Shown here: piece after piece, positions 5,735-18,677 of the stretch
How positions within the stretch are numbered: the first letter of the stretch is position 1
Layout of the letters: each line of letters begins with the position of its first letter
From: an uncultured Actinomycetes bacterium
GTDB lineage: Bacteria > Actinomycetota > Thermoleophilia > RBG-16-64-13
Direction of reading: 5' to 3'
Length of the DNA stretch: 64,000 nt
Assembly: GCA_963747275.1 (NCBI GenBank)
Contig: CAVVEI010000012.1
Location: forward strand, 19,066-83,065
Position numbers and translations under genes: made by a program
The notes under the pieces: generated by a model
Databases searched by the model: none
Told to the model about the DNA's origin: nothing
What the model saw: only the letters and a program-made list of their open reading frames with translations

Positions 5735-6283
5735 ATGACCGCGGATAGTAAGGCAAAGAGCAGTACCTGCCAGGGCTGCGAGGAGGCCTCAGAGCAGGAA
5801 CTCCTTGCGCGCCTCGATGAAGTGCTCGAGCGCTACAAGGTGAGTCCCGGAGGACTCATCCCGGTCCTGCAACAGGCCCAGGGCATCTTCGGTTATCTGC
5901 CCGAGGTTGCCCTCAAGCGCATCGCCAAGGGTCTCTCTAAGTCGTACAGCGAGGTGGCCGGAGTGGTGAGCTTCTACTCCTTCTTCTCCACCGTACCTCG
6001 CGGCAAGCACATCATAAGAGTCTGCCTGGGTACCGCCTGCTACGTGCGCGGCGGCCTCGCGGTGCTGGACGCCGTTCGCGAGAAGCTGGGCATCGACGTG
6101 GGCGAGACCACCGAAGACCGGCAGTTCTCGCTCGAGGTGGCGCGCTGCTTCGGAGCCTGCGGTCTCGCTCCGGCTGTCTCTATAGACGAAGACGTCCACC
6201 GGCGCGTGCGCGCATCCCAGGTGGGACAGATACTTGCCCGCTACTACGAACAGGAAGAGGTGGCCCAGAATGTCGCCAGTTGA
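5735..6283 (+). CDS. hydC: NuoE-like [2Fe-2S] subunit of NAD(P)H-linked [FeFe]-hydrogenase (HydC/gamma type)
   Basis: SD AAGGAG. Motifs: LIPVLQQAQGIFGYLP, SFYSFF, IIRVCLGTACYVRG, ARCFGACGLAPAV. The four Cys match the 24-kDa-subunit fold. Confidence 0.85.
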   Translation: MTADSKAKSSTCQGCEEASEQELLARLDEVLERYKVSPGGLIPVLQQAQGIFGYLPEVALKRIAKGLSKSYSEVAGVVSFYSFFSTVPRGKHIIRVCLGTACYVRGGLAVLDAVREKLGIDVGETTEDRQFSLEVARCFGACGLAPAVSIDEDVHRRVRASQVGQILARYYEQEEVAQNVAS

Positions 6284-6674
6284 GGGGTCCGGTGCCGGCA
6301 AGATAAAGAGCCCTGCCGACCTGCTTGCCATAAAGGAGCGGACGCAGCGTGAGAACGCCCTGCGCGAGGACGGCTATCACGTCCTGGCCACCGTGCACAT
6401 GGGCACTTGCGGCATCGCAAGTGGTTCGCGCGAGGTCCTCTCGACCATGATCGCCGAACTCTCGGCCTCTGGACGCCTGGACGTGCGGGTCGCGACTTCG
6501 GGCTGCATAGGAGCCTGCGAGCACGAACCGGTGATGACGGTCGAGACTCTGGAGAAGGCCAAGGTGGTCTACGGCGACTTGGACGCCGAGAAGGCCAGAG
6601 AGATCTGGCGAGAGCACATCATGGACGGCAGACACGTGCCCAAGTACGTGGTCAGCTACGGAAGCGAGGCCTGA
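6270..6674 (+). CDS. thioredoxin-like [2Fe-2S] ferredoxin (HydD-like)
   Basis: ATG 6270 follows GAAGAGGTGG. Motifs VHMGTCGIASGS and SGCIGACEHEPVMTV are typical of the small ferredoxin found in Thermoanaerobacter-type hyd clusters. Confidence 0.75.
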   Translation: MSPVEGSGAGKIKSPADLLAIKERTQRENALREDGYHVLATVHMGTCGIASGSREVLSTMIAELSASGRLDVRVATSGCIGACEHEPVMTVETLEKAKVVYGDLDAEKAREIWREHIMDGRHVPKYVVSYGSEA

Positions 6675-6678
6675 GTCG

Positions 6679-9600
6679 ATGAGCGACAACGGCAAGACAC
6701 CCCACATGCACATAATGATGTGCTTCGGCACCGCCTGCCTCTCCTCAGGTGCCGAGCACGTCAAGGCCGCCCTCGAGGAACAGCTTCACCTCCAGGACGC
6801 GGACGCCGAGGTCGGCGTGATCGAGACAGGCTGTAACGGCTTCTGCGCCGGTGGCCCGCTCATGGTCATCTACCCCGGCGGCGTGTTCTACAACAAGGTC
6901 ACACCCGAGGACACTGCCGAGATCGTGGCCGAGCACGTGCTCAAAGGCCGTCCGGTGGAGAGGCTCATGTACGAGCACCCCACCACCAAGGCCCGCATAC
7001 CCCTGTTCAAAGACATCCCCTTCTTCGCCCGCCAGAACCTGCGCGTGCTGCGCAACAAGGGACGCATAGCGGCTGAAGAGATCGACGAGTACATAGCCAA
7101 CGACGGCTATGCCGGGCTGGCCAAGGCCCTCACCGAGATGACGCCCGAGGACATAGTCGAAGAGATCATGATGAGCGGCCTGCGCGGCCGCGGGGGCGCG
7201 GGCTTTCCCACCGGCCTCAAGTGGGAGTTCGCCTCCAAGGCCAAGGGCGACCAGAAGTACATACTCTGCAACGCCGACGAGGGCGACCCCGGGGCGTTCA
7301 TGGACCGCAGCATCCTGGAGAGCGACCCGCACGCGGTGCTCGAGGGCATGATGATCGGTGCGCGGGCCATCGGGGCCACCAAGGGCTACATCTACTGCCG
7401 GGCCGAGTATCCGCTGGCGCTGGAGCGCCTGGGCGTGGCCATCGCCGCCCTGCGTGAGTACGGCCTTCTCGGCAAGGGCATCCTGGGCACCGACTTCGAC
7501 TTCGACATCGAGATAGCCCAAGGCTCGGGCGCCTTCGTCTGCGGCGAGGAGACGGCGCTCATGACCTCCATCGAGGGCAAGCGCGGCGAGCCGCGCCCGC
7601 GGCCCCCGTTCCCGGCGCAGAAGGGTCTGTGGGGTCAGCCCTCGGTGCTCAACAACGTCGAGACGTTGGCCACCGTGCCCTCCATCATCAGGCTGGGGGC
7701 CGCATGGTTCCGCACCGCCGGCACTGAGAAGAGCCCTGGCACCAAGATCTTCGCCCTCTCGGGCAAGGTCAACAACGTCGGTCTGGTCGAAGTCGACATG
7801 GGTATCCCCCTGGGCGACATAATCTACGAAATAGCCGGGGGCATCCCGGGCGGCAAGCAGTTCAAGGCCGTGCAGTTGGGTGGTCCGTCTGGTGGCTCCA
7901 TTCCCCGTCAGCACTTGAACGTGCCGGTGGACTACGAGTCGGTGCAAGAGCTGGGCGCCATCATGGGCTCCGGCGGACTCATCGTCATGGACGAGGACAG
8001 CTGCATGGTCGACATGTCCCGCTTCTTCTTGGAGTTCACCCAAGAGGAGAGCTGCGGCAAGTGCGTGCCCTGCCGCGTGGGCACCAAGCGCATGCTCGAG
8101 ATCGTCACCCGCATCTGCAACGGCCAGGGCGAAGAGGGCGACATAGAGAAGCTCGAGGAGCTGGGCAAGGTGATCAAAGACACCGCCCTCTGCGGCCTCG
8201 GCCAGACCGCCCCCAACCCGGTGCTGGCCAACATCCGCTACTTCCGCAAGGAGTTCGAGGCAGCACATCCGCGACCATCGCTGCGAGGCGGGCGTCTGCT
8301 CGAGCATGTTCGTGGCCAAGTGCACCAACGCCTGCCCGGCGTCGGTGAACGTGCCCGGCTTCGTCAGCCTCATCGGCGAGAAGCGCTTCGACGAGGCCCT
8401 CCGCCTGCACCGCGAGCGCAACCCGCTGGCCAGCATCTGCGGCCGCGTCTGCTTCCATCCGTGCGAAAGCAAGTGCCAGCGCGGCACCATGGACGACCCG
8501 GTGGCTATCCGCGGTCTCAAGCGCTTCATGACCGAGCAGGAGAAGAAGCTGCAGGTTCCTGAGGTCCGCAAGAGCGCCGCAAACGCCGAGAAGAAGATCG
8601 CCATCATCGGCGGCGGTCCGGCCGGCCTCTCCTGCGCCTACTTCCTGGCGCGGCTGGGTTACGAGCCCACCATCTTCGAGCGCGAAGACCACGCCGGCGG
8701 CATGTTGGTGCAGGCCATCCCCTCGTACCGCCTGCCGCGCGAAGAGCTGGACCGCGAGATCAAGATGATCCAGGACCTGGGCGTGACCATAGAGACCGGC
8801 AAGGCTCTGGGCCGCGACTTCACCCTGGCCAGCCTCCGCAACCAGGGCTATCACGCCGCCTTCTTGGGCGTCGGCGCCCCCAAGGGCGTCGGCCTGGGAC
8901 TCTCCAAAGAAGAGGGCTCTGAGGCCGGCGAAGGCGTGGTCGATGCGCTCACCTTCTTGCGTGAGTACAACGTCAGCGGCAATCCCGCCGTGGGTCAAGA
9001 GGTCGCCGTGGTCGGCGGGGGCAACTCCGCTATCGACGCCGCCCGTACCGCCCTCCGCTTGGGCGCCAAGCACGTGAACATCATCTACCGCCGCCAGCGC
9101 GAGCAGATGCCCGCCTGGACCGAAGAGATACTGGCTGCCGACGAGGAGGGCATCACCCTGCTCACCCTGACGGCTCCCGAGACCATCAGACGCGACTCTT
9201 CCGGCAAGGTGGCCGGCATACTGTGTCAGAAGATGGTGCTGGGTGACTACGACTCGAGCGGCCGGCGCCGTCCGGTGCCGGGCCGCGACCCTCACTTCAT
9301 AGTGCCGTGCGACCAGGTGATAGCCGCCATCGGCCAGGCCCCCGAGCCGCGGATGCTCACCGGCGACCTACCCGTCGAGATGGATAACGGCTGGCTCAAG
9401 GCCGACGAGCGCACCGGCTCCACCAACCTGGACTGGGTGTTTGCCGGCGGCGACGCCGTCACCGGCCCGGCCTCGGTGGTCGAGGCCGTGGGCGCCGGCG
9501 AGCGCGCCGCGGTCTCCATTGACAAGTACCTCACCGGCGAAGAGCACGCCTTCTGGCGACGCGACCTCGCTGTGGACACCTTCTTCGACCCCGATGCCGA

Positions 9601-9811
9601 CCCGACCGAAACCCCCCGTGCCGCGGTCGTCTGCTTGGACGCCGAAGCCCGCGCGTGCACCTTCGACGAGGTCGAGCTGTCGTGGGACCTGCAGACTGCC
9701 TGCGCCGAAGCCAAGCGCTGTCTGCGCTGCGACTACGGCAAGATCCCCGCCGAGCCTGAGCTGGTGGGCGTCGCGGCAGCCGACTCTGATACACAAGGAG
9801 ACGTGGAGTAA
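6679..9811 (+). pseudogene. NuoF-like flavoprotein (HydB/beta type) fused to a GltD/NfnB-like FAD/NAD(P)H oxidoreductase module; one frameshift as assembled
   Basis: N-terminal Trx-like 2Fe-2S (MMCFGTACLSSG, ETGCNGFCAGGP). NuoF core: GRGGAGFPTGLKW, ILCNADEGDPGAF, ESCGKCVPCRVG, LCGLGQ. After ...YFRKEFEA the frame slips near 8261-8266. It continues HIRDHRCEAGVCSSMFVAKCTNACPA..ICGRVCFHPCESKCQRG..KIAIIGGGPAGLSCAYFL..VAVVGGGNSAIDAART..VFAGGD. Confidence 0.8.
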
Positions 9812-11583
9812 TGCCAAGCCTGACTGTAGATGGAATGAAGGTGGAAGTGCCTGAGAGCGCCAGCGTCCTGCAGGCCTGCCGCCAAGCCGGCGCCAAGGTG
9901 CCCACCCTGTGTCACCTGGAGGGCCATCCGGCCATCGGCGCCTGCCGCCTCTGCCTGGTGGAGTTGGAGGGCGCCCGCTCCCTGGTCGCCTCTTGCACCC
10001 AACCAGCCACCGACGGCATGGTGGTGCACACCAACACCCCGCGCGCGCGCCGCGCGCGCCACGCCGTGCTGGAGCTCATACTCTCCGAGCACGATGGTGA
10101 CTGCTACGCGTGCGTGCGCAGCGGTGACTGCGAACTGCGACAGTTGGCCCTCGACCTACATGTGGTCGAGATCAGCTATGAGGGCGAACGCACCCGCAAG
10201 ATGATCGACGAATCCACGCCCGCGCTGGTGCGCGACACCGGCAAGTGCGTCAGCTGCCGCCGTTGCGTGACCGCCTGCAACGAGATCCAGGGCGTGGGTG
10301 CCCTGTTCGCGCAGGGGCGCGGCTTCACCACAGTCATAGGCCCGGCCTTCGCCAGCAACTTGAGCGACGTGGTCTGCGTTCAATGCGGCCAATGCGCCGC
10401 CGTGTGCCCGGTGGGAGCCATCACCGAGAACAACGCCGTCGACCTGGCCTGGGCAGCCCTGGACGACCCCGCCAAGCATGTCATAGTGCAGACCGCGCCC
10501 GCCATCCGCGGCGCGCTGGGAGAGGAGTTCGGCTACGAGCCCGGTACCCTGGTCACCGGCAAGATGGTCTCGGCCTTGCGGCGTCTCGGGTTCGACGCCG
10601 TGTTCGACACCAACTTCACCGCCGACCTAACCATCATGGAAGAGGGCACCGAGCTGCTCACCCGCCTCAAGAAGGCTCTGGTGGACGGCGAGCAGGTGGC
10701 CCTGCCCATGTTCACCAGCTGCTCCCCGGGTTGGGTCAACTACATGGAGCACTTCAACCCCGACATGCTCCCTAACCTCTCCACCTGCAAGTCGCCCCAA
10801 CAGATGTTAGGCGCGCTGGCCAAGACCTACTACGCCGAGAAGCTGGGCAAGAAGCCTGAGGACATCGTGGTGGTCTCGGTGATGCCCTGCACCGCCAAGA
10901 AGTACGAGTGCGCCCGAGTGGAGATGGGCCGGGGCGGCGTAGCCGACGTCGACATGGTGCTCACCACCCGAGAGCTGGCGCGCATGATCAAGATGGCCGG
11001 CATAGACTTCCAGAACCTGCCCCCGCAGAAGATGGACCGCCCGCTGGGCATGTCCACCGGCGCGGCAGACATCTTTGCCGTCACCGGTGGAGTGATGGAG
11101 GCGGCGCTCCGCACCGCCTACGAGATAGTCACCGGCGAGGCCTTCCCCTTCGTCAACCTTCACGTGGCCCCCATCGAGGGGCTGCAGGGCGTCAAAGAAG
11201 CTTCGGTCAAGATCGAGAAGACCCTACCCGAGTGGAGCTTTCTCAAGGGCGCCACGCTCAACGTGGCCGTGGCCCACGGGTTGGGCAACGCCCAGAAGGT
11301 CATCGACCGCATAAAGAGCGGTGAGGCCACCTACCATTTCGTCGAAGTCATGACCTGCCCCGGCGGATGCATCGGTGGCGGCGGCCAGCCGCGCCTGACC
11401 TCCGACGCGGTGCGCGAGGCGCGCATACGAGCCATCTATGCCGAGGACGAGGGGCGCGAGCTACGCAAGTCGCACGAGAACCCCGACGTCAAAGCCTTGT
11501 ACGAGGAGTTCTTGGGTGAGCCTTTGGGGCACAAGTCTCACGAACTCTTGCACACCAAGTACGTGGAGAAAGACCGGGTCTAG
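9811..11583 (+). CDS. hydA: [FeFe]-hydrogenase catalytic subunit, multi-cluster (M3-type) HydA
   Basis: ATG overlaps the upstream TAA (TAATG), with SD AAGGAG. N-terminal 2Fe-2S (CHLEGHPAIGACRLC), His-ligated cluster region, CVSCRRCVTAC and CVQCGQCAAVCP. H-cluster motifs: L1 FTSCSPGW (non-canonical), L2 VMPCTAKKYE, L3 EVMTCPGGCIGGGGQP. C-terminal small-subunit-like tail. Confidence 0.9.
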   Translation: MPSLTVDGMKVEVPESASVLQACRQAGAKVPTLCHLEGHPAIGACRLCLVELEGARSLVASCTQPATDGMVVHTNTPRARRARHAVLELILSEHDGDCYACVRSGDCELRQLALDLHVVEISYEGERTRKMIDESTPALVRDTGKCVSCRRCVTACNEIQGVGALFAQGRGFTTVIGPAFASNLSDVVCVQCGQCAAVCPVGAITENNAVDLAWAALDDPAKHVIVQTAPAIRGALGEEFGYEPGTLVTGKMVSALRRLGFDAVFDTNFTADLTIMEEGTELLTRLKKALVDGEQVALPMFTSCSPGWVNYMEHFNPDMLPNLSTCKSPQQMLGALAKTYYAEKLGKKPEDIVVVSVMPCTAKKYECARVEMGRGGVADVDMVLTTRELARMIKMAGIDFQNLPPQKMDRPLGMSTGAADIFAVTGGVMEAALRTAYEIVTGEAFPFVNLHVAPIEGLQGVKEASVKIEKTLPEWSFLKGATLNVAVAHGLGNAQKVIDRIKSGEATYHFVEVMTCPGGCIGGGGQPRLTSDAVREARIRAIYAEDEGRELRKSHENPDVKALYEEFLGEPLGHKSHELLHTKYVEKDRV

Positions 11584-11634: not shown

Positions 11635-12126
11635 ATGACCGACGACATGTCCGCGCTGATCCTGATAGTCGACGACGACTACGACTTTCTGGAGCTCAAC
11701 CGTATGGTGCTCGAGCGGGCAGGCTATCGCGTCACTACGGCAGCCGAACCCAAGCAGGCCCTCCTGCTCATGCAGCAGGAGCGGCCCGACCTGGTGATCA
11801 CCGACCTCATGATGACCACCCTTGATTCGGGCTTCTTGTTCGCGCGCGCCATCAAGGAGGACGAGCGCTACGCCGGAATACCCGTGATCATAGCCACCTC
11901 GGTCTCCAGCGCGCTCGGCCTGGACTTCAGACCCCGCACCGACGAAGACCGCGCCAACATGTTCGTGGACGCTTACTTTGACAAGCCGCTGGACCGGGCG
12001 CGGCTGCTGGCCACGGTCGCGGAGTTGCTCACGGCCTCGGGGCGCGCGGCCGCGCCGGGCAGCTCCGAAGCCGCCGCGCCGCGCGAAGCGCCGGCCGGCC
12101 CCGGCCGAGAGGCGCCGGAGGACTGA
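11635..12126 (+). CDS. stand-alone response-regulator receiver domain (no output domain)
   Basis: LILIVDDDYD, phospho-acceptor context DLVITDLMM, IIATSVSS, YFDKP. Ala/Pro-rich tail. The stop overlaps the start of the sensor kinase. Confidence 0.85.
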   Translation: MTDDMSALILIVDDDYDFLELNRMVLERAGYRVTTAAEPKQALLLMQQERPDLVITDLMMTTLDSGFLFARAIKEDERYAGIPVIIATSVSSALGLDFRPRTDEDRANMFVDAYFDKPLDRARLLATVAELLTASGRAAAPGSSEAAAPREAPAGPGREAPED

Positions 12127-14147
12127 TGCCCACCTGGGACAACCCCCTCATCACCATAGTCACCGACAAATGCCGCATGTGCTACGCCTGCGTGCGTGAG
12201 TGCCCGGCCAAGGCGATACAGGTGCAAGACGGGCAGGCCCAGGTAGTACAACCCCGCTGCATAGGCTGCGGCAACTGTCTGCGAGTGTGCACCCAGAACG
12301 CCAAACAGGTGCGCGACGACTCCGAGCGCATGTTCAACATCCTGGAGTCGGGCGCCAAGGTGGCCGCGCTGGTGGCACCCAGCTTTCCGGCTGAGTTCGA
12401 CGACGTCCGCCCAGGCACCCTGGTGGCCATGATCCGGTCGCTGGGGTTCGATTCGGTGCACGAGATATCGCTGGGCGCCGACCTGGTGGCTCAGGCCTAC
12501 AAGAAGCTTCTGGACGAGGACCCCGACGGCCGTTACATCGCCACTCCCTGCCCGGCGGTGGTCTCTTACGTGCGCAAGTATCATCCGCGACTGATCCCTA
12601 ACCTCGCCCCGCTGGTGTCGCCCATGGTCGCCATGGCGCGCGTGTTGCGGAGCGAGGTGGGCGAAGACCTGCAGGTGGTCTTCATAGGCCCCTGCGTGGC
12701 CAAGAAGCGGGCGTCTGTGGACTTCATCCATCACGAGTTCGAGGCGGTCCTCACCTTCGCCGAGCTGCGCGAGGTCTTCGCCGCCCGCGGCATGAAGCCT
12801 GAGGACTTTGCCGGTGACGACGACTTCGACCCTCCGTACGGTGGGCTCGGCATGGTCTTTCCGATCTCCGGAGGCCTGCTGCAGGCCGCCGACCTGAAGC
12901 AGGACCACCTCAGCGGTGATCTGGTCATCGCCGAAGGCAGAGACGAGTTCGTCTCCTCCATAAACGAGTTCGACGACGTGCGCACCGGCATCAGGCTGCT
13001 TGACGTGCTCGCCTGCCAAGGCTGCTATGCGGGGGCAGGTATGACCAGCGACGCGTCCCTGTTACAGCGCCGAGCGCTGGTCAGCGGCTACGCCAAGGAT
13101 AGGCTGGCAGACTACAGCGAAGCCGAGCTGGCCGAGGTGAACGGGGCGAGAGACAAGTACCGCAATATCGACATGTCGCGCGAGCACGAGCCAGACGAGC
13201 AGACGCTGGGGGGCGAGCCCACGCCCGAAGAACTGGACGAGATCTTGCAGCGCATGGGCAAGTCCAGACGCGAACACCTGCTCAACTGCGGCGCCTGCGG
13301 CTATGAGGGCTGTTTAGAGCATGCCCGCGCGGTCTATGCCGGACTTGCCGACTCAGAGATGTGTCTGCCACACTCCATCGAGCAGCTCCGCCAGGCCTAC
13401 GGCGAACTCGCAATCTCGCACCGCTCGCTCGAAGAGGCCAAAGAAGCCCTCGAGCGCTCGGGCAAACTGGCCAGCATGGGCCAACTGGCGGCCGGCATAG
13501 CCCACGAGGTCAACAACCCGCTGGGCACGCTGCTCTTACACGCCAACCTGCTGCTGGAGGAGTGCGACGAAAGCTCCGCCGACAAAGAAGACCTGGCGAC
13601 CATCGTCGACCAGGCCAACCGCTGCAAACGCATAATCTCCGGCCTGCTCAACTTCTCCCGCCAGAGCCGGGTACTCCGCCAACCCACCGACGTAGCCGAG
13701 CTGGTGGAGCGTACCATCCGCACCACCCCCTTCGCCGACAACGTCAAGGTCGTACTCGACAACAAGCTCGCCGACCCAGTCGCCGACCTCGACCCCGACC
13801 AGATGGTGCAGGTGTTCACCAACCTCTTCACCAACGCTCAGCAGGCCATGCCCGACGGGGGCACGCTTGCCATAGACTTGAGCGACGACCCCGCCACGGT
13901 CACCATCAAGGTCACCGATACCGGCGTGGGCATAGCGCCCGAACACATGCCCAACCTGTTCGACCCGTTCTTCAGCACCAAACCGCTGGGCATGGGCACC
14001 GGGTTGGGTCTCGCCGTGACCCACGGCATCGTCAAGATGCACAAGGGACACATAGTCGCTGAGTCCAACCACGACCCCGCTGCCGGCCCCACCTGGACCG
14101 CCCTCACCGTGACACTGCCGCGGCGCGAAGAGAAGGAGGGCGTCTAG
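12126..14147 (+). CDS. sensory [FeFe]-hydrogenase-like domain fused to histidine kinase (HydS-type sensor::HisKA-HATPase)
   Basis: CRMCYACVRECP and CIGCGNCLRVC. H-domain-like core: ATPCPAVVSYVRKYHP (degenerate L1), FIGPCVAKKRA (L2), LDVLACQGCYAG (L3). C-terminal Cys motif NCGACGYEGCLEHA..MCLP. Then SMGQLAAGIAHEVNNPL (H-box) and N/G1/G2 boxes (FTNAQQAM, DTGVGI, GTGLGLAV). Confidence 0.85.
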   Translation: MPTWDNPLITIVTDKCRMCYACVRECPAKAIQVQDGQAQVVQPRCIGCGNCLRVCTQNAKQVRDDSERMFNILESGAKVAALVAPSFPAEFDDVRPGTLVAMIRSLGFDSVHEISLGADLVAQAYKKLLDEDPDGRYIATPCPAVVSYVRKYHPRLIPNLAPLVSPMVAMARVLRSEVGEDLQVVFIGPCVAKKRASVDFIHHEFEAVLTFAELREVFAARGMKPEDFAGDDDFDPPYGGLGMVFPISGGLLQAADLKQDHLSGDLVIAEGRDEFVSSINEFDDVRTGIRLLDVLACQGCYAGAGMTSDASLLQRRALVSGYAKDRLADYSEAELAEVNGARDKYRNIDMSREHEPDEQTLGGEPTPEELDEILQRMGKSRREHLLNCGACGYEGCLEHARAVYAGLADSEMCLPHSIEQLRQAYGELAISHRSLEEAKEALERSGKLASMGQLAAGIAHEVNNPLGTLLLHANLLLEECDESSADKEDLATIVDQANRCKRIISGLLNFSRQSRVLRQPTDVAELVERTIRTTPFADNVKVVLDNKLADPVADLDPDQMVQVFTNLFTNAQQAMPDGGTLAIDLSDDPATVTIKVTDTGVGIAPEHMPNLFDPFFSTKPLGMGTGLGLAVTHGIVKMHKGHIVAESNHDPAAGPTWTALTVTLPRREEKEGV

Positions 14148-15305
14148 ATGCCCGGCCCTGCCCAAGTGCTACACGTGGCCATGGTGGACGACGAGGTCCC
14201 TCTCAGCTCGGCCGTCAAGCGCATCCTGGCCAAGTACAAGGCGCATGTCGATGCCGTCGACATCGACGTCACCTACACCTCGACGCAATTCGGCACCGCC
14301 GAAGACTTCCTGGCTAGCCTCAGCGAAGGCGCCGAGTTCGACCTGCTGCTGCTGGACCTCAAGCTGCCCGGCATGAACGGCCTGGACGTCCTCACCGAGT
14401 TGGGCAAAGGGGACCGCGAGCTTGTCACCGTGATGATCACCGCCTACGCCACCTTTGAGACGGCCGTGCAGGCCACCAAGCTGGGCGCCTTCGACTTCTT
14501 GCCCAAGCCCTTCTCGCCCGAGGAGCTCCGCTACTCGCTGCGCAAGGCCACCAATCAGCTCATAATCAGTCGCGAAGCGCGTCGCTTGGCCGAAGAGGAG
14601 CGGCAGGTGCGCTTCAACTTCATCTCCGTCTTGTCTCACGAACTCAAGGCGCCGCTCAACGCCATCGAGGGCTATCTCAAGCTACTGCAGGAGGACGAGC
14701 CGCCCGAACGCCTGCAGATGATCGACCGTAGCCTCATCCGCCTGGACGGCATGCGCAAGCTCATCTTCGACCTCCTGGACCTCACCCGCATAGAGTCGGG
14801 ACAGAAGGCGCGCCAGTTCGCCCCGGTGGACGTAGCCGCCGTCGCCCGCAAGACCATAGACCTGTTCGCCACCGAGGCCGCCGACCGCGACATCACCATC
14901 TTGCTCGACACGCCCCAGCCGGTCACCATGACGGCCGACGCCGGCGAGCTTGAGATCGTGTTCAACAACCTGGTCTCTAACGCGGTGAAGTACAACCGCG
15001 ACGGCGGCACCGTGACGGTCTCCCTTGACCGTCAAGAGGACACCGCACGCATCCAGGTGACCGACACCGGCATAGGCATGACCCCCGAGGAGAGTGCCAA
15101 GCTCTTCAACGAGTTCGTCCGCATAAAGAACGAAGATACGTTCAAGATCTTGGGGAGTGGCTTGGGCCTTTCGACCGTACGCAAGCTGGCTCATCTCTAC
15201 GGGGGCGAGGCCTCGGTCAAGAGCGAAAAGGGCGTGGGTAGCACCTTCACGGTGACGCTCAAGGACGCCGTGCAGCCCTCCGCGGAGACCGCAACTACGG
15301 CCTAG
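14148..15305 (+). CDS. hybrid histidine kinase (N-terminal receiver + HisKA + HATPase)
   Basis: SD AAGGAGGG. REC: VAMVDDE, LLLLDLKLPGMNG, MITAY, FLPKP. H-box FISVLSHELKAPLN. ATPase: NLVSNAVKYN, DTGIGM, GSGLGLS. Confidence 0.85.
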   Translation: MPGPAQVLHVAMVDDEVPLSSAVKRILAKYKAHVDAVDIDVTYTSTQFGTAEDFLASLSEGAEFDLLLLDLKLPGMNGLDVLTELGKGDRELVTVMITAYATFETAVQATKLGAFDFLPKPFSPEELRYSLRKATNQLIISREARRLAEEERQVRFNFISVLSHELKAPLNAIEGYLKLLQEDEPPERLQMIDRSLIRLDGMRKLIFDLLDLTRIESGQKARQFAPVDVAAVARKTIDLFATEAADRDITILLDTPQPVTMTADAGELEIVFNNLVSNAVKYNRDGGTVTVSLDRQEDTARIQVTDTGIGMTPEESAKLFNEFVRIKNEDTFKILGSGLGLSTVRKLAHLYGGEASVKSEKGVGSTFTVTLKDAVQPSAETATTA

Positions 15306-15330: not shown

Positions 15331-17196
15331 TCACTGCCCCTCGGCTGCCGGGCGGAACTGGGTCTCGTAGAGCTCGGCGTACGGACCACCAGCCTCTACC
15401 AACTCTTCGTGCGTGCCGCGCTCGACTACGCGTCCGTCGTCGATCACCAAGATCTGATCGGCGTCGCGCACCGTCGAGAGGCGGTGGGCTATCACCAACG
15501 AAGTCCGGCCTTCGAGGGCGGTCTTGAGGGCGGTCTGCAGCGCGACCTCTGACTCTGAGTCCAGGTGCGCGGTGGCTTCATCGAGTACGACCACATCCGG
15601 TGCCTTCAGCAGCAATCGAGCTATGGCCATGCGCTGTTTCTCCCCGCCAGACAGCCTGTATCCGCGATCGCCCACCACCGTGTCCAGACCATCGGCCAGG
15701 TCATCGACGAACGACAGTATCTGTGCGGCCGCGAGTGCCTCCCGCATCTCGGCCTCAGTGGCGCCGGGCTTCGCGTAGAGCAGGTTGTGGCGGATGCTTT
15801 CGTGGAACATGTGGGCATCCTGCGTGACCACCCCCACTATGGCCCGCAGCGAGTCGAGGGTGGCGTCGCGCACATCCACGCCAGATATCTCCACCGAGCC
15901 TTTGTCGACGTCATAGAGGCGCGGCACCAACTGGCTGATGGTCGTCTTGCCCGCCCCCGACGGACCGACCAAAGCCACCAGCTGCCCTGGTTCGGCTCTG
16001 AACGATATGTCTGAGAGCACCTCCTTGGGGATGCTCGCCTGGTTCGAAACCGCGACCGCCCCGAGCGAGGCCAGCGACACCTGCTCGGCAGTGGGGTAAG
16101 TGAACGCCACATGCCGGAACTCTACGGACGCGGGACCGCGGGGGATGGGAGCGGCAGAGGGCTTCTCGGTCACCATGGGCTCGATGTCCAACACCTCGAA
16201 CACCCGTTCGAACGAGACCAGGGCCATCATGATGTCTACGTGCATGTTGGAAAGAGCCGTAAGGGGACCGTACAGGCGACCCAGGTAGGCCGCAAGCGCC
16301 ACCAGAGTGCCCACGTCGAGTGCCCCACGTATGGTGAGCACACCGCCCCAACCATAGACCAGCGCCGTGGCCAAGGCCGCGGTGAGCGACAGGGCGACGA
16401 ACAGCACGCGCGTGGATACAGCTTGGATCACCCCTATCTCGCGTACCCGGCCCGCTCTGCCGGAGAAAGCCGTGTCTTCGTCGACCGGACGCCCGAACAG
16501 CTTGACCAGAAGCGCCCCCGCCACGTTGAAGCGCTCTACCATCATGTTGTTCATCTCGGCGTTCAGCTTGTACTCCTCGCGCACGATCTTCTGCAGACGC
16601 CGACCCAGCCAGCGCGCCGGAAACAGGAAGAGGGGCAACAGCGCCAGGGAGAGCAGCGTGATCTGCCAAGACAGCACGAACATGGCCGCCAGAACCAAGG
16701 TCACGCCGATGAGGTTGCCGATGACCGTCGAGAGGACCTCGGTGAAGGCCTGCTTGGCTCCCCTCACATCGACATTGAGGCGGCTGACCAAGGCCCCTGT
16801 TTGTGTGCGGGTGAAGAAGGCCAGCGGCATACGTTGCACGTGCGAGAAGATGCGGGTGCGCAGATCACAGACCAGACTCTCCCCCACGCGGGCCGAAACG
16901 TAGCGCTCGGCCAACGACACGGCTGCGTCGATTATGGCAAGCCCGGCCACGACCAAGGCCAAGACCACCACCAACCCGGTCCGGCGGTCGATTATGCCGC
17001 GGTTGATGATCTCCCTGTATATGAGAGGGTTGGCAGCCCCGATGGCGCCGCTGACGACCACCAGCACCACGAAGGTCGACAACAGGCCCTTGTACTGCGA
17101 CGCGAACCCAAGGATCCGGCGCACGGTCCCCTTGGCCAGCTTGCGACCGGCTACGTCTTCCCTCATAGACCGCACTACCTGCGCATGGGGTCTCAA
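15331..17196 (-). CDS. ABC exporter, fused permease/ATPase (MsbA/ABCB-like)
   Basis: Six-TM N-terminal half, then Walker A GPSGAGKTT, signature LSGGEKQR, Walker B VVVLDEATAHLD and H-loop IAHRLST. Confidence 0.85.
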   Translation of the reverse strand: MRPHAQVVRSMREDVAGRKLAKGTVRRILGFASQYKGLLSTFVVLVVVSGAIGAANPLIYREIINRGIIDRRTGLVVVLALVVAGLAIIDAAVSLAERYVSARVGESLVCDLRTRIFSHVQRMPLAFFTRTQTGALVSRLNVDVRGAKQAFTEVLSTVIGNLIGVTLVLAAMFVLSWQITLLSLALLPLFLFPARWLGRRLQKIVREEYKLNAEMNNMMVERFNVAGALLVKLFGRPVDEDTAFSGRAGRVREIGVIQAVSTRVLFVALSLTAALATALVYGWGGVLTIRGALDVGTLVALAAYLGRLYGPLTALSNMHVDIMMALVSFERVFEVLDIEPMVTEKPSAAPIPRGPASVEFRHVAFTYPTAEQVSLASLGAVAVSNQASIPKEVLSDISFRAEPGQLVALVGPSGAGKTTISQLVPRLYDVDKGSVEISGVDVRDATLDSLRAIVGVVTQDAHMFHESIRHNLLYAKPGATEAEMREALAAAQILSFVDDLADGLDTVVGDRGYRLSGGEKQRMAIARLLLKAPDVVVLDEATAHLDSESEVALQTALKTALEGRTSLVIAHRLSTVRDADQILVIDDGRVVERGTHEELVEAGGPYAELYETQFRPAAEGQ

Positions 17197-17401
17197 AATG
17201 TGTCCTTCTCTTCTCTGTTCATAACGCGGACCTTCTGTGCGCTTACGATATATCGTATTAGATTGTACCGCACGGTGTCGCGGCCGCCAAGACGCCCGGG
17301 GCAGTCAGCTCTCCTGCCCTTGATCGCTATCCACCCAAAGATTGATATCTACCCAGCGCTCCCCACGTGACAATGCGTACGAAGACCGGCCCGGAGGTAT
17401 A

Positions 17402-17704
17402 ATGAGCTCACCTAACGCACTACATGCAGTCGAGGTGCCCGCTATGCCCAGCATCGGTCTTCGCCATCTGAAAACCCATGCGTCCGAGATTCTGCGCGAC
17501 GTCGAAGAGAACGAGGCGAGGTACGTGGTCACCAGCAGAAACAAGCCTTTGGCCATCATCATCCCCTATTCCTCCCGCGAGGTGACGAAGCCCCTGAGCA
17601 AGGACGAGGCGTGGGAAACGTTCTTCGCAGCAGGGGAGCAGGTGAGGCAGGCGTGGCAGAGCCCCCTCACAGCCGTAGAGATCCTGCGCGATATGAGGCG
17701 GTAG
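17402..17704 (+). CDS. Phd/YefM-family antitoxin
   Basis: ATG 17402 with SD GGAGG. The pattern IGLRHLKTHASEILRDVEENEARYVVTSRNKPLAIIIP is typical of Phd/YefM. It ends 3 nt upstream of a PIN toxin gene. Confidence 0.7.
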   Translation: MSSPNALHAVEVPAMPSIGLRHLKTHASEILRDVEENEARYVVTSRNKPLAIIIPYSSREVTKPLSKDEAWETFFAAGEQVRQAWQSPLTAVEILRDMRR

Positions 17705-17707
17705 ACC

Positions 17708-18142
17708 ATGCTCGGCCGCGTCACGCTTGACGCGAGCGTAGCGGTTAGTGCCTTCAGTCCGACCGAGGCCAGCTCTGAGGACTGCTGTCGTCTCTTGGAG
17801 TTGTTGCGGCGCAACCAGACTGTGATCGTCGTACCCACCCTGATACGCCCCGAGTTAGCGGCAGCCATCCGCAGATCTACCGGAGACGCAAGCAAGGCCG
17901 AGGCTCTTGAGGAGGCCTTCGCCAAACTGCCCGGCGTGATCTTCCAGGACCTAGACGAGCGGATGGCAGCCGCAGCCGTCGAGATAGCCGCGGCTGCCGG
18001 GTTGAGAGGCGCCGATGCCGTGTACGCGGCCACCGCGCGCCACTTTGACGCGACACTAGTCACCCTCGATGAAGAGCAGAGAACGAGACTCCCTGCTGAC
18101 ATTGCCACCCTCTACCCTTCTGAGGTCCTAGAGGCCATGTAG
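17708..18142 (+). CDS. vapC: PIN-domain toxin VapC
   Basis: LDASVAV (first acidic residue), RPELAAAI, GADAVYAATA and LVTLDEE match the PIN acidic quartet layout. Paired with the upstream antitoxin. Confidence 0.7.
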   Translation: MLGRVTLDASVAVSAFSPTEASSEDCCRLLELLRRNQTVIVVPTLIRPELAAAIRRSTGDASKAEALEEAFAKLPGVIFQDLDERMAAAAVEIAAAAGLRGADAVYAATARHFDATLVTLDEEQRTRLPADIATLYPSEVLEAM

Positions 18143-18290: not shown

Positions 18291-18677
18291 GTGGTAAAGA
18301 TCCTTATCGTCGATGATGACCCGGACATGGTAGAAGCCAGCCGAATAGTCCTCGAGAGAGACGGCTACTCGGTGGAACACGCCTCCAACGTCGAAGAGGG
18401 CCTGCAGAAGCTCGCAGAGGCCAAGCCCGACCTGCTGATCCTGGACGTGATGATGGAAGAGCCCGACGACGGCCTGCGCTTCGCCAGGCAGGCGAGGCGT
18501 TTGGGCAACGATCTGCCGATACTCATGCTCACCAGCGTCAACCGCGCCCTTGGCATCCAGATAGGCAAAGACGAAGAGATGGTCCCGGTGGACGAGTTCG
18601 TGGAGAAGCCGGTCGACCCCGCCACCCTCTCAGCCAAAGTCAAGGAGTTGCTCGCCATGAGAGGAGCTGCCTCATGA
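18291..18677 (+). CDS. stand-alone response-regulator receiver domain, first gene of second hydrogenase operon
   Basis: GTG start after GAGGGAG. KILIVDDDPD, DLLILDVMM, LMLTSVNRALG, FVEKP. Paralogous to the receiver at 11635. The stop overlaps the next ATG (ATGA). Confidence 0.85.
   Translation: MVKILIVDDDPDMVEASRIVLERDGYSVEHASNVEEGLQKLAEAKPDLLILDVMMEEPDDGLRFARQARRLGNDLPILMLTSVNRALGIQIGKDEEMVPVDEFVEKPVDPATLSAKVKELLAMRGAAS

What the first reader, a model, noticed from the sequence alone, without database searches (positions are those of the whole stretch)
11635..15305. Sensory [FeFe]-hydrogenase domain fused directly to a histidine kinase, inside a receiver / sensor-kinase / hybrid-kinase phosphorelay with no visible output domain
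ORF 12126-14147 combines several modules. It has two ferredoxin CxxCxxCxxxCP motifs and an H-domain-like core in which the cluster-binding Cys of L1/L2/L3 are kept (ATPCPAV, GPCVAKK, LACQGC). The canonical TSCCP proton-relay Cys is absent. A C-terminal 4-Cys motif, a coiled coil, an H-box (AHEVNNPL) and a full HATPase follow.

Its start overlaps the stop of an output-less receiver (TGATG), and a REC-HisKA-HATPase hybrid kinase follows directly. The trio sits between two catalytic hydrogenase operons.

Sensory hydrogenases (HydS-type) and a genomically predicted 'histidine-kinase-linked' subclass are established. To my knowledge no such fusion or its downstream relay has been characterised. No DNA-binding response regulator is encoded anywhere in this window.
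Basis: partly seen in the sequence, partly recalled or inferred. Interest (0 to 1): 0.7.

Follow-up and report, generated by a model that had tools for sequence, protein, structure and literature searches.

The report
Hydrogen-sensor hydrogenase fused to a kinase
A hydrogenase-like sensor protein is fused directly to a signalling kinase and sits with three small receiver proteins between two hydrogen-metabolising enzyme operons; this would let researchers test directly how bacteria sense hydrogen with [FeFe] hydrogenases, which is still unproven.

Summary
ORF 12126-14147 (673 aa) reads: two [4Fe-4S] motifs, an [FeFe]-hydrogenase H-domain, a C-terminal Cx2Cx4Cx16C cluster, a coiled coil, then HisKA and HATPase_c. 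All 16 cluster cysteines are invariant in 113 homologues. The proton-relay Cys is Pro and M353 is Gly, as in group C sensory hydrogenases such as TmHydS. The PAS domain of that group is replaced by a kinase core.

The kinase gene is translationally coupled to a lone receiver upstream and a REC-HisKA-HATPase kinase downstream. A third lone receiver overlaps the first gene of the second hydrogenase operon. The window holds no DNA-binding response regulator, only a Rex repressor.

Across at least 11 phylum-level lineages, 44 of 54 kinase-fused loci keep a lone REC plus a REC-kinase. Only 2 carry an NtrC-type regulator instead.

The spacing from cluster to phospho-His follows a heptad series, which points to coiled-coil signalling. 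Family matches suggest the order HydS-HK, then REC-kinase, then lone receivers.

The fusion has been noted in MAG papers but never tested, and I found no description of the relay. I rate it a new variant of a known kind, of moderately high interest.

The parts
11635..12126 (+). REC1: stand-alone receiver (163 aa; D13/D14, phospho-Asp D57, T88, K117) with a disordered Ala/Pro-rich tail and no output domain. Its stop overlaps the start of the kinase gene (TGATG).
   Evidence: Pfam Response_reg 63.8 bits. Junction read. Catalytic residues located and conserved in 67/67 lone receivers of related loci.
12126..14147 (+). HydS-HK: sensory-type [FeFe]-hydrogenase module fused to a histidine kinase (673 aa, cytoplasmic).
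   Evidence: Pfam architecture. More than 120 homologous clusters share the architecture. Foldseek matches [FeFe] hydrogenases for the N-terminal ~410-440 columns and ZraS/CckA/HK853 for the C-terminal part, all with probability 1.00.
12150..12302 (+). Two [4Fe-4S] ferredoxin motifs (C16, C19, C22, C26 and C45, C48, C51, C55).
   Evidence: Fer4_10/Fer4_7 hits. All 8 Cys are invariant in 113 homologues.
12357..13034 (+). H-domain. L1 is IATPCPAV (Pro141 at the C299 relay position; C142 = C300). L2 is FIGPCVAKK (Gly188 = M353, C190, K193 = K358). L3 is DVLACQGC (Leu295 = M497, C297, C300; Cx2C spacing). The A84-P85-S86 motif is kept.
   Evidence: Fe_hyd_lg_C E = 9.6e-37. Aligned to the two catalytic HydAs of the window. 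Residues invariant across 59-100% and 39-74% identity homologues. AlphaFold pLDDT ~85-95 over aa 62-350.
13281..13370 (+). C-terminal cluster motif C388-x2-C391-x4-C396-x16-C413 (PF04060). This is the motif shared by group C and D sensory hydrogenases.
   Evidence: PF04060 32.9 bits. Motif definition from PMC8163306. The four Cys are invariant.
13365..13505 (+). Signalling helix / coiled coil from the last cluster ligand (C413) to the phospho-accepting His460, 47 residues.
   Evidence: Predicted helices 414-429 and 435-479. Spacing is 47 aa in 120/120 close homologues. In distant ones it falls on 33/40/47/54/68 in 82 of 85 direct fusions.
13476..14126 (+). Kinase core: HisKA (H460 in AHEVNNPL) and HATPase_c (N566/N570, D598xGxG, F612-F616, G622-G628). 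AtoS/ZraS-like.
   Evidence: HisKA 51.1 bits, HATPase_c 78.4 bits. Boxes invariant. Best PDB hit ZraS, E = 4.7e-34. Best NCBIfam hits AtoS and ZraS, below cut-off.
14148..15305 (+). REC-HK: NtrC-like receiver (D14/D15, D70, T98, K120) joined by a fixed 44-residue helix to a PhoR/HK853-like HisKA (H164) and HATPase_c core. The start codon directly follows the HydS-HK stop.
   Evidence: Pfam. Receiver best matches NtrC1/DctD/NtrC/LuxO and the core matches HK853. Core closest to PhoR/PnpS. The K-to-H spacing is 44 in 37 of 38 direct fusions. Junction read.
18291..18677 (+). REC3: stand-alone receiver (128 aa; D8/D9, D52, T81, K106). Its stop overlaps (ATGA) the start of the NuoE/F gene of the second hydrogenase operon.
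   Evidence: Pfam 78.3 bits. Junction read. The REC3-type gene ends -6 to +18 nt from a HydC/NuoE gene (longest-ORF start calls place three at -49 to -175) in all 14 loci that have it. Receiver closest to PhoP/YycF/MtrA/RR468 types.
5735..11583 (+). Context: hydrogenase operon 1. NuoE-like 5735-6283, 2Fe-2S protein 6234-6674, NuoF 6679-8562, GltD-like (longest ORF 8306-9811, start uncertain), HydA1 9811-11583.
   Evidence: Pfam. HydA1 passes NCBIfam NF040763, 869.6 bits against 765.
18674..22292 (+). Context: hydrogenase operon 2. NuoE-NuoF fusion 18674-20374 and HydA2 20355-22292.
   Evidence: Pfam. HydA2 passes NF040763, 793.3 bits.
1204..2319 (+). Context: Rex redox-sensing repressor (with a C-terminal extension) at the head of the supercluster. 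A Rex-box-like palindrome TGTTACATCTGTAACA lies at 1138-1153.
   Evidence: Pfam Put_DNA-bind_N + CoA_binding. NCBIfam Rex 187.6 bits against 126. Palindrome found. Rex is at the same position in L002, L003 and L007.
2327..4017 (+). Context: second sensory-type gene (HATPase_c - 2x Fer4 - H-domain - Cx2Cx4Cx16C). It is broken over at least 3 frameshifts in this assembly.
   Evidence: ORFs. Partial Pfam hits. tblastn against the intact 568-aa orthologue of L003.
15331..18142 (.). Lineage-specific insertion between REC-HK and REC3: ABC exporter 15331-17196 (-) and a Phd/PIN toxin-antitoxin pair 17342-18142 (+).
   Evidence: Pfam. Absent from the syntenic loci L001-L004, where REC3 follows REC-HK directly.

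Best explanation
ORF 12126-14147 is a cytoplasmic H2 (or H2/electron-pressure) sensor kinase.

**Step 1, shown by sequence.** A group C type sensory [FeFe]-hydrogenase module has its usual PAS domain replaced by a HisKA/HATPase core. The module comprises two N-terminal [4Fe-4S] clusters, an H-cluster domain without the proton-relay Cys, and a C-terminal [4Fe-4S] cluster.

**Step 2, inferred from anatomy.** H2 binding or oxidation at the slow H-cluster changes the redox or conformational state of the sensor. A rigid coiled coil starts at the last ligand of the C-terminal cluster. It passes the change to the DHp helix and alters autophosphorylation at His460.

**Step 3, inferred from family-level matching.**
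- The AtoS/ZraS-type kinase phosphorylates the NtrC-like receiver of the next protein (REC-HK, Asp70).
- That receiver controls its own PhoR/HK853-type kinase core (His164) through a fixed 44-residue helix.
- This second kinase phosphorylates the two OmpR/RR468-like lone receivers, REC1 (Asp57) and REC3 (Asp52).

**Step 4, speculative.**
- The lone receivers act by protein-protein contact rather than by binding DNA.
- REC3 is co-translated with the second NADH-dependent/bifurcating hydrogenase, which makes that hydrogenase its likely target.
- Transcription of the supercluster is handled separately by Rex.
- The net effect would be to balance the two flanking hydrogenases according to the H2 level.
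For: **The protein is a sensory-type hydrogenase fused to a kinase**
- Domain architecture and scores.
- H-domain alignment with the window's own catalytic HydAs.
- Sixteen invariant cluster Cys in 113 homologues.
- A84-P85-S86, K193 and the kinase boxes are invariant.
- Pro at C299 and Gly at M353 fall within the reported residue spectrum of HydDB sensory hydrogenases (Pro ~10%, Gly ~51%): PMC10055695.
- The Cx2Cx4Cx16C motif equals the group C/D signature: PMC8163306.
- Fold match to CbA5H, HydABC and CpI, and to ZraS.

**The module is a portable sensory input**
- The same Fer4-H-FeS module aligns end to end with proteins whose C-termini are PAS, sigma54-AAA+-HTH, PAS-sigma54 or GGDEF-HD.

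**Link to hydrogen metabolism**
- A catalytic HydA lies immediately upstream in 39 of 54 loci.
- HydE/G/F follow the trio in L007.
- The supercluster order is conserved in Thermoleophilia and Ignavibacteriota.

**Coiled-coil transmission**
- The Cys413-His460 spacing is 47 aa in 120/120 close homologues. It lies on a 7-residue series in 82/85 distant ones.
- Helices are predicted across this stretch.

**Order of the cascade**
- The kinase core is closest to ZraS/AtoS.
- The REC-HK receiver is closest to NtrC1/DctD/NtrC/LuxO. It clusters with the NtrC-type regulators that replace REC-HK in L045 and L048.
- The REC-HK core is closest to PhoR/PnpS/HK853.
- REC1 and REC3 are closest to PhoB/MtrA/YycF/RR468 receivers.
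- All receiver catalytic residues are conserved, in 67 lone RECs and 51 REC-HKs.

**REC3 and hydrogenase 2**
- ATGA overlap in the window.
- Adjacency to HydC in 14/14 loci of two phyla.
Against: - There is no experimental evidence that any [FeFe] HydS protein signals. The sensory role is still called putative (PMC8924675).
[quoted passage not shown] A simple redox relay through that cluster is therefore doubtful.
- Partner assignment rests on kinase and receiver subfamily resemblance and on gene order, not on specificity-residue covariation or assays.
- Gene adjacency would equally fit HydS-HK phosphorylating REC1 directly.
- L3 has Cx2C instead of the canonical Cx3C spacing. The consequence for H-cluster geometry is unknown.
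- Only 64 kb of the genome was seen. A DNA-binding partner encoded elsewhere cannot be excluded.
- HydEFG maturases are not in the window.
- The AlphaFold model is poor for the Fer4 part and the DHp helices (pLDDT < 50).
Confidence: 0.6

Rival explanations
1. This is an ordinary transcriptional two-component system whose DNA-binding regulator is an orphan encoded outside the window. HydS-HK and/or REC-HK phosphorylate that regulator. The lone receivers are phosphate sinks or connectors that shape the response.
For: - In two Clostridia loci (L045, L048) an NtrC-type REC-sigma54-HTH regulator follows the fused kinase directly. L005 has one 4 kb away.
- The kinase core is of the AtoS/ZraS type, which normally serves NtrC-type regulators.
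- The [NiFe] H2 sensors work this way (HydDB group 2b, PMC5037454).
- Only 64 kb was examined.
Against: - 44 of 54 loci from at least 11 lineages keep REC plus REC-HK and no DNA-binding regulator within ~6 kb.
- This holds even where the whole hydrogenase and maturase regulon is in one cluster (L007).
- REC3 is translationally coupled to hydrogenase structural genes in two phyla. That is hard to explain for a mere sink.
- Actinobacteria generally lack sigma54 (my own knowledge, not tested here).
Confidence: 0.25
2. The module senses cellular redox state (reduced ferredoxin or NAD(P)H electron pressure), or O2/CO, rather than H2. The H-domain may hold only its [4Fe-4S] subcluster, as in Nar1/NARF-like proteins. 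The kinase would then report Fe-S redox state.
For: - Five predicted Fe-S sites surround a degenerate active-site pocket: relay Cys lost, M353 to Gly, M497 to Leu, shortened Cx2C.
- At least one distant relative lacks the L1 Cys (P0189).
- The sensory function of HydS is unproven.
Against: - The four H-cluster Cys, the Lys that binds a CN ligand (K193) and the APS motif are invariant over 39-100% identity.
- TmHydS has the same kinds of substitution, and it binds a functional H-cluster and turns over H2 (PMC10055695).
- The trio is embedded among HydA and HydEFG genes.
Confidence: 0.12
3. The ORF is a chance fusion, a pseudogene or an assembly artefact in an error-prone MAG, and does not encode a functional protein.
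For: The window shows many apparent frameshifts in other genes: the second HydS-type gene 2327-4017, GatA/GatB, a sigma-70 gene and lpdA.
Against: - The 673-aa ORF is uninterrupted and matches full-length homologues (most 666-688 aa) from independent assemblies.
- It shows the genome's coding GC3 pattern.
- Every catalytic and ligand residue is kept.
- The fusion recurs in about 45 of the 150 best-scoring 50%-identity representatives.
Confidence: 0.01

Closest known systems
TmHydS, the putative sensory group C (M2f) [FeFe] hydrogenase of Thermotoga maritima
   Same: - Two N-terminal [4Fe-4S] motifs, an H-domain with all four cluster Cys, and the C-terminal Cx2Cx4Cx16C cluster.
- The relay Cys C299 is lost and M353 is Gly.
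- The gene lies next to a bifurcating group A hydrogenase.
- PAS-type relatives of the same architecture (L063, L075, L080) align end to end at 36-39% identity.
   Different: - No PAS domain. A coiled coil leads straight into HisKA/HATPase.
- Pro rather than Ala at C299, and Leu rather than Ser at M497.
- The signalling partner is therefore built in, whereas TmHydS partners are unknown.
TamHydS, the group D (M2e) putative sensory hydrogenase of Thermoanaerobacter mathranii
   Same: - The C-terminal 4-Cys cluster and the lost proton pathway.
[quoted passage not shown]
- Leu at M497.
   Different: - TamHydS has no fused signalling domain.
- The window's second sensory gene (2327-4017; intact in L003 as HATPase_c-Fer4-H-FeS) looks like the closer counterpart of that type, not the HydS-HK.
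- The sensor HMM covers the HydS-HK relatives fully, but covers that second type only partly.
Kinase-fused group C hydrogenases noted in MAG surveys (Elusimicrobia lineage V, bioRxiv 10.1101/765248; Ca. Lernaella stagnicola, PMC9324843)
   Same: - The same idea: a group C hydrogenase carrying a histidine-kinase/HATPase domain.
- It lies next to a trimeric group A hydrogenase, with Rex nearby.
- An Elusimicrobium MAG locus (L034) has the same REC and REC-HK companions.
   Different: - Those papers give one sentence each.
- They offer no analysis of ligands, linker, companion receivers or second kinase, and no experiments.
[NiFe] H2-sensing systems HoxBC-HoxJ-HoxA (Cupriavidus) and HupUV-HupT-HupR (Rhodobacter); HydDB group 2b
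   Same: The logic is the same: a slow, sensor-grade hydrogenase controls a histidine kinase that governs hydrogenase genes (PMC5037454; details from established knowledge).
   Different: - A different metal site and fold.
- There the sensor and kinase are separate proteins joined through a PAS domain.
- The output is an NtrC-type DNA-binding regulator.
- Here the sensor is covalently fused, and the neighbours are a second kinase and lone receivers.
HydDB [FeFe] group C1, 'histidine kinase-linked (putative)'
   Same: A putative sensory [FeFe] hydrogenase associated with a histidine kinase.
   Different: - In the one described case (Vallitalea) the kinase is a separate neighbouring gene (PMC6163223).
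- A kinase-fused protein was classified C3 by HydDB in PMC9324843.
- The subgroup of the window protein could not be determined here.
Two-component pairs with lone receivers and multikinase networks (HK853-RR468, ThkA-TrrA); coiled-coil sensor kinases such as YF1/FixL chimeras
   Same: - REC-HK's core resembles HK853, and REC3 resembles RR468/TrrA-type receivers.
- A heptad-periodic linker between sensor and DHp is the hallmark of coiled-coil signal transmission (the principle is from my own knowledge of LOV-kinase linker studies).
   Different: - The input is a hydrogenase module.
- Two kinases act in series with no HPt domain.
- The targets of the lone receivers are unknown.

Membership tests
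[FeFe]-hydrogenase H-domain (Pfam PF02906) | Profile match above the curated threshold | tested here: met
   127.4 bits against 22.1, E = 9.6e-37, covering profile positions 2-244 of 245.
[FeFe]-hydrogenase H-domain (Pfam PF02906) | Four Cys that bind the H-cluster (CpI C300, C355, C499, C503) | tested here: met
   C142, C190, C297 and C300 align with the catalytic HydAs and are invariant in 113 homologues. The spacing of the last pair is Cx2C rather than Cx3C.
[FeFe]-hydrogenase H-domain (Pfam PF02906) | Residues that hold the CN ligands of the [2Fe] subsite (Lys358; Ala-Pro-Ser motif) | tested here: met
   K193 and A84-P85-S86 are invariant in alignments A4 and A5. Mapping to CpI numbering is by alignment to the window's HydAs plus established motif knowledge.
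[FeFe]-hydrogenase H-domain (Pfam PF02906) | Hydrogenase fold | tested here: met
   Foldseek probability 1.00 and ~400-450 aligned columns to CbA5H, T. kivui and T. maritima HydA, and CpI. pLDDT ~85-95 over aa 62-350.
[FeFe]-hydrogenase H-domain (Pfam PF02906) | Actual incorporation of the [2Fe] subcluster and H2 turnover | not testable with these tools
   This needs maturation followed by FTIR/EPR and activity assays.
Putative sensory [FeFe] hydrogenases, group C (M2f, TmHydS type) | N-terminal two-[4Fe-4S] domain plus C-terminal Cx2Cx4Cx16C motif | tested here: met
   Fer4 hits and PF04060. Exact spacing C388/C391/C396/C413. Motif definition in PMC8163306.
Putative sensory [FeFe] hydrogenases, group C (M2f, TmHydS type) | Proton-relay Cys299 not conserved; Met353 replaced by a small residue | tested here: met
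   Pro141 and Gly188. Reported frequencies in HydDB sensory sequences are Pro ~10% and Gly ~51% (PMC10055695).
Putative sensory [FeFe] hydrogenases, group C (M2f, TmHydS type) | PAS domain after the C-terminal cluster | tested here: not met
   No PAS hit at E <= 0.01. HisKA starts at aa 451. PAS is present in relatives L063, L075 and L080. The protein is therefore a non-PAS variant of the group.
Putative sensory [FeFe] hydrogenases, group C (M2f, TmHydS type) | Encoded next to a group A (bifurcating) hydrogenase | tested here: met
   HydA1 ends 52 nt upstream of REC1. A HydA lies immediately upstream in 39/54 related loci.
Putative sensory [FeFe] hydrogenases, group C (M2f, TmHydS type) | Placement by the HydDB classifier or phylogeny (C1, C2, C3 or D) | not testable with these tools
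   HydDB is not available. Indirectly, full-length sensor alignment to PAS-type relatives, and only partial alignment to the D-like neighbour gene.
HisKA-class histidine kinase | H-box His in a DHp domain plus N, G1, F and G2 boxes of the ATP-binding domain | tested here: met
   HisKA 51.1 bits and HATPase_c 78.4 bits. H460, N566/N570, D598-G600-G602, F612/F615/F616 and G622-G628 are invariant in 60 sequences. PDB ZraS E = 4.7e-34.
HisKA-class histidine kinase | Autophosphorylation and phosphotransfer | not testable with these tools
   Biochemical assay required.
Classical multi-step phosphorelay (HK-REC-HPt-REC) | A histidine phosphotransfer (HPt) domain or protein | tested here: not met
   No HPt family reaches threshold in any of the four proteins. 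There is only a sub-threshold PF10090 hit (18.7 bits against 22.9) over the ATPase region. The second His-containing protein has a complete kinase core.
[NiFe]-type H2-sensing two-component system (HoxBC/HoxJ/HoxA) | Separate [NiFe] sensor dimer, PAS-kinase and NtrC-type DNA-binding regulator | tested here: not met
   The sensor is an [FeFe] H-domain fused to the kinase. No NtrC-type regulator is in the window. Such a regulator is adjacent in only 2 of 54 related loci. It works like this system but is not a member.

The most novel reading that the evidence does not exclude
The HydS-HK / REC / REC-HK / REC module is an ancient, widely transferred H2-driven two-kinase cascade.

Its end-points are lone receivers that act after translation on the hydrogenase complexes themselves. 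REC3 would be a phospho-switchable accessory subunit of the second NADH-dependent/bifurcating HydABC. Hydrogen level would then gate enzyme activity or assembly directly, rather than gating transcription.

That would be the first two-component system known to control a hydrogenase by protein-protein contact. It would also be the first defined signalling output of any [FeFe] sensory hydrogenase.
Probability: 0.2. Interest if true: 0.85.

Novelty: new variant of a known kind. Interest (0 to 1): 0.6.

Why it matters
Whether group C and D [FeFe] hydrogenases really sense H2, and how they pass the signal on, is still open. A 2026 study of TamHydS concluded that finding the interaction partners is the critical next step (PMC13104023).

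In this protein family the partner is fused to the sensor. A simple read-out, H2-dependent autophosphorylation and phosphotransfer to three neighbouring receivers, would test the sensing hypothesis directly.

The heptad-locked linker gives a concrete structural model for transmission from the C-terminal cluster.

The module is conserved in at least 11 lineages, it lacks a DNA-binding output, and one receiver is tightly coupled to hydrogenase structural genes. Together these suggest a regulatory layer on bifurcating hydrogenases that has not been described.

The module could also serve as a genetically encoded H2 biosensor.

Tried and rejected
- **Source contig.** The look-up of the identical protein P0001 failed. 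The cluster look-up returned no names or accessions. The organism is therefore inferred only from homologues labelled Thermoleophilia or Actinomycetia.
- **Rex operators.** The Streptomyces-type consensus gave only an intragenic chance-level hit. The Clostridial-type consensus and a degenerate palindrome gave one credible site at 1137-1154. Neither found a site before REC1 or REC3.
- **Promoters and terminators.** The scan of 11-19 kb was uninformative: one promoter-like site on the minus strand and no terminators. The organism is probably outside the scope of the consensus.
- **Greening et al. 2016 (ISME J).** The survey that defined group C is not in the searchable library. Group definitions were taken from HydDB and later papers.
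- **TSCSP motif of both catalytic HydAs.** I first suspected an anomaly, a lost [4Fe-4S]H ligand. I rejected this because the same motif occurs in the solved, active A. woodii HydA1 (7q4v) and in 40 neighbouring HydAs.
- **Pseudogene or artefact reading of the kinase ORF.** Rejected on the evidence.
- **Specificity-residue analysis of kinase-receiver pairing.** Not attempted, because no covariation model was available. Partner order rests on subfamily resemblance only.

Full report
**1. What is in the sequence**

Three ORFs occupy 11635-15305 on the + strand, exactly as described. They show the coding GC3 pattern of this ~64% GC genome.
- 11635-12126 (163 aa) is a receiver-only protein.
- 12126-14147 (673 aa) combines, in order (Pfam):
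  - a Fer4 dicluster (aa 9-59);
  - Fe_hyd_lg_C (aa 78-303, 127 bits, E = 1e-36);
  - PF04060 'FeS' (aa 386-415);
  - HisKA (aa 451-513);
  - HATPase_c (aa 556-667).
- 14148-15305 (385 aa) is REC-HisKA-HATPase_c.

The genes are translationally coupled. The first junction reads TGATG. The TAG stop of the kinase is followed at once by the next ATG, with a GGAGG eight bases upstream.

A third receiver-only gene lies at 18291-18677. It overlaps (ATGA) the NuoE/F gene of the second hydrogenase operon.

**2. Is the N-terminal half a real H-domain?**

I aligned it with the two catalytic HydAs of the same window.
- L1 reads IATPCPAV. Cys142 sits at the [4Fe-4S]H ligand position. Pro141 sits at the proton-relay position (CpI C299).
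- L2 reads FIGPCVAKK. Gly188 replaces M353. Cys190 and Lys193 are kept.
- L3 reads DVLACQGC. Leu295 replaces M497. Cys297 and Cys300 are kept, with Cx2C rather than Cx3C spacing.
- The C-terminal motif is exactly Cx2Cx4Cx16C. Land et al. give this as the signature shared by group C and D sensory hydrogenases (PMC8163306).
- Pro at C299 and Gly at M353 lie within the residue spectrum reported for HydDB sensory sequences (PMC10055695).

All 16 cluster cysteines are invariant in 113 full-length homologues of 59-100% identity. The Ala-Pro-Ser motif, Lys193 and every kinase box are invariant as well.

An AlphaFold model is confident for the H-domain and the ATPase domain. It is poor for the cofactor-dependent Fer4 part and the dimer-dependent DHp. 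Foldseek matches the N-terminal part to CbA5H, HydABC HydA subunits and CpI. It matches the C-terminal part to ZraS, CckA and HK853, all at probability 1.00.

One small correction: the second ferredoxin motif ends in Cys-Thr, not Cys-Pro.

**3. The neighbourhood**

The trio lies inside a hydrogenase supercluster. In order:
- Rex (1204-2319), preceded by a Rex-box-like palindrome at 1138-1153.
- A second sensory-type gene, HATPase_c-Fer4-H-FeS (2327-4017). It is broken by at least three frameshifts here and is intact in L003.
- A DRTGG-like gene, a PHP gene and a small HATPase_c gene.
- NuoE, a 2Fe-2S protein, NuoF, a GltD-like protein and HydA1.
- The trio.
- An ABC exporter on the opposite strand and a Phd/PIN pair.
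- REC3, a NuoE-F fusion and HydA2.

Both HydAs pass NCBI's 'NADH-dependent [FeFe] hydrogenase, group A6' model.

No further receiver domain exists anywhere in the 64 kb. No DNA-binding response regulator was found among the other ORFs.

Several housekeeping genes look frameshifted. The assembly is probably error-prone. The kinase ORF itself is intact and close in length to its full-length homologues.

**4. Relatives**
- The protein has more than 120 90%-identity clusters of the same architecture. They come mostly from MAGs labelled Thermoleophilia or Actinomycetia.
- Four syntenic loci at 65-77% identity show the same order from Rex to HydA2. In them REC3 follows REC-HK directly, so the ABC/toxin-antitoxin block is an insertion specific to this genome.
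- A search with the sensor part alone (aa 1-430) finds 1013 50%-identity clusters at E <= 1e-30.
- Among 66 of the best representatives, all carry Fe_hyd_lg_C and 65 carry PF04060. The outputs differ:
  - 21-22 HisKA/HATPase;
  - 14 sigma54-AAA+ (9 with HTH_8);
  - 12 PAS;
  - 4 GGDEF.
- Individual examples confirm these outputs:
  - PAS only, the TmHydS architecture;
  - sigma54-AAA+-HTH;
  - PAS-sigma54-HTH;
  - GGDEF-HD.

The Fer4-H-FeS unit therefore behaves as a portable input module. That is independent support for a sensory role.

**5. The companions are conserved, and a DNA-binding regulator is not**

A scan of species-representative genomes returned 79 loci from many phyla. I called ORFs in them and searched them with local HMMs for the sensor, the kinase core and receivers. 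Of 54 kinase-fused loci with at least 2.2 kb downstream:
- 44 have both a lone receiver and a REC-kinase next to the fused kinase.
- 50 have the REC-kinase.
- 39 have a catalytic HydA immediately upstream.
- Only two, both Clostridia MAGs, have an NtrC-type REC-sigma54-HTH regulator instead.

The lineages include Thermoleophilia/Actinomycetes, Myxococcota, Planctomycetota (including a Kuenenia MAG), Hydrogenedentota, Bdellovibrionales and Verrucomicrobiota. They also include Bacteroidota, Desulfobacterota, Elusimicrobiota, Ignavibacteriota and Acidobacteriota.

Two loci illustrate the context.
- In the Kuenenia MAG the order is Rex, NuoE, NuoF, HydA, HydS-HK, REC, REC-HK, HydE, HydG, a lyase, HydF.
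- In an Ignavibacteriales MAG it is NuoE, NuoF, HydA1, HydS-HK, REC, REC-PAS-HK, REC, NuoE, NuoF, HydA2.

**6. How it most likely works**

*Transmission.* The distance from the last cluster ligand (Cys413) to the phospho-accepting His460 is 47 residues in all 120 close homologues. In distant direct fusions it is 33, 40, 47, 54 or 68 in 82 of 85 cases, a series with a step of seven.

Helices are predicted across this stretch. This is the signature of a continuous coiled coil that fixes the register between sensor and DHp. The principle is known from engineered LOV-kinase linkers (my own knowledge).

The C-terminal cluster of TamHydS is not reduced by H2 (PMC13104023). The signal is therefore more likely conformational than a simple reduction of that cluster.

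*Order of the cascade.*
- The fused kinase core is closest to ZraS and AtoS. These kinases serve NtrC-type receivers.
- The receiver of REC-HK is closest to NtrC1, DctD, NtrC and LuxO.
- That receiver clusters with the NtrC-type regulators that take its place in the Clostridia loci: 33-38% mean identity, against 23-27% to the lone receivers.
- The kinase core of REC-HK is closest to PhoR, PnpS and HK853.
- REC1 and REC3 form one superfamily with the lone receivers of other phyla. They are closest to PhoB, MtrA, YycF and RR468-type receivers.
- The REC-to-His spacing in REC-HK is 44 residues in 37 of 38 direct fusions.
- All receiver catalytic residues are conserved, in 67 lone RECs and 51 REC-HKs.

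The best-supported reading is a chain from H2 to HydS-HK His460, then REC-HK Asp70, then REC-HK His164, then REC1 Asp57 and REC3 Asp52. This is inference from family resemblance and gene order. It is not shown.

*Output.* REC3-type genes end within -6 to +18 nt of a HydC/NuoE gene (three more negative values come from over-extended ORF start calls) in all 14 loci that have one: six Thermoleophilia and eight Ignavibacteriota. A receiver co-translated with hydrogenase subunits suggests action on the enzyme complex rather than on DNA. Transcription would be left to Rex. This last step is speculative.

**7. Comparison with what is known**
- HydDB lists [FeFe] group C1 as 'histidine kinase-linked (putative)'. 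In the described case the kinase is a separate gene.
- Kinase-fused group C proteins have been noticed in Elusimicrobia MAGs, with Rex nearby. One was also noticed in Ca. Lernaella, where HydDB called it C3.
- Only PAS-type TmHydS and the domain-less TamHydS have been studied biochemically. Their sensory role is still called putative, and their partners are unknown.
- Searches for autophosphorylation work, or for the domain combination, found nothing.
- Functionally the closest system is the [NiFe] HoxBC-HoxJ-HoxA sensor. It is unrelated in fold and ends in a DNA-binding regulator.
- No HPt domain is present. This is a two-kinase cascade, not a classical phosphorelay.

**8. Verdict**

The observation and the interpretation are sound. 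The protein is a new member of an already noticed kinase-fused branch of sensory [FeFe] hydrogenases.

Three features appear to be undescribed:
- the conserved four-protein relay that lacks a DNA-binding output;
- the heptad-locked linker;
- the coupling of REC3 to hydrogenase structural genes.

I rate it a new variant of a known kind, with interest 0.6. The main value is that it makes the open question of [FeFe] H2 sensing directly testable.

**Limits**
- The locus survey was capped at 600 pattern matches.
- ORF calling was simple (longest ORF per stop).
- The receiver HMM was built from three sequences.
- Only 64 kb of the source genome was available.

Noticed in passing
window 9811-11583 and 20355-22292: Both catalytic HydAs carry FTSCSPGW instead of the textbook TSCCP motif, so Ser sits where the [4Fe-4S]H ligand Cys300 aligns. 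The same motif occurs in 40 of ~64 neighbouring HydAs of related loci and in the solved A. woodii bifurcating HydA1 (7q4v). It is a common natural variant, not an anomaly.
   Followed up: yes
window 2327-4017: A second sensory-type gene encodes an N-terminal HATPase_c (no HisKA) fused to 2x Fer4, an H-domain and Cx2Cx4Cx16C. It needs at least 3 frameshifts here but is intact (568-615 aa) in L001 and L003. It is a different kind of kinase-like fusion to a sensory hydrogenase, followed by DRTGG-like, PHP and small HATPase_c genes.
   Followed up: partly
window 49912-52368, 53486-54313, 54733-55242, 60366-61774: Several housekeeping genes look fused or broken: a GatA-GatB single ORF with a separate GatB tail, a truncated sigma-70 gene, primase fragments and a split dihydrolipoamide dehydrogenase. 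This suggests indel errors in the assembly.
   Followed up: no
L071 9998-12208, L060 2108-4318, L073 9992-12613, L083 9956-12358: The same Fer4-H-FeS sensor module is fused directly to sigma54-AAA+-HTH activators, with or without PAS, and to a GGDEF-HD protein (Desulforadius tongensis). These would be one-component H2-responsive regulators.
   Followed up: partly
window 15331-18142: An ABC exporter on the minus strand and a Phd/YefM-PIN toxin-antitoxin pair are inserted between REC-HK and REC3. They are absent from the four syntenic loci L001-L004.
   Followed up: yes
window 1137-1154 and 1204-2319: A perfect palindrome TGTTACATCTGTAACA, resembling a Rex operator, lies ~50 nt upstream of a 371-aa Rex ORF. 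The C-terminal 150 aa of that ORF look like a DRTGG-type domain. This is either a real fusion or another frameshift artefact.
   Followed up: partly
window 8306-9811 / L001 4537-7665: In relatives NuoF and a GltD-like NAD(P)H-binding protein form one 1035-1042-aa polypeptide. In the window they appear as overlapping ORFs 6679-8562 and 8306-9811. Hydrogenase 1 probably has an extra pyridine-nucleotide site that hydrogenase 2 lacks.
   Followed up: no
P0189 (representative protein): At least one kinase-fused relative lacks the L1 cysteine (…IDSTGPVMISY…). Some members may therefore have lost the H-cluster.
   Followed up: no
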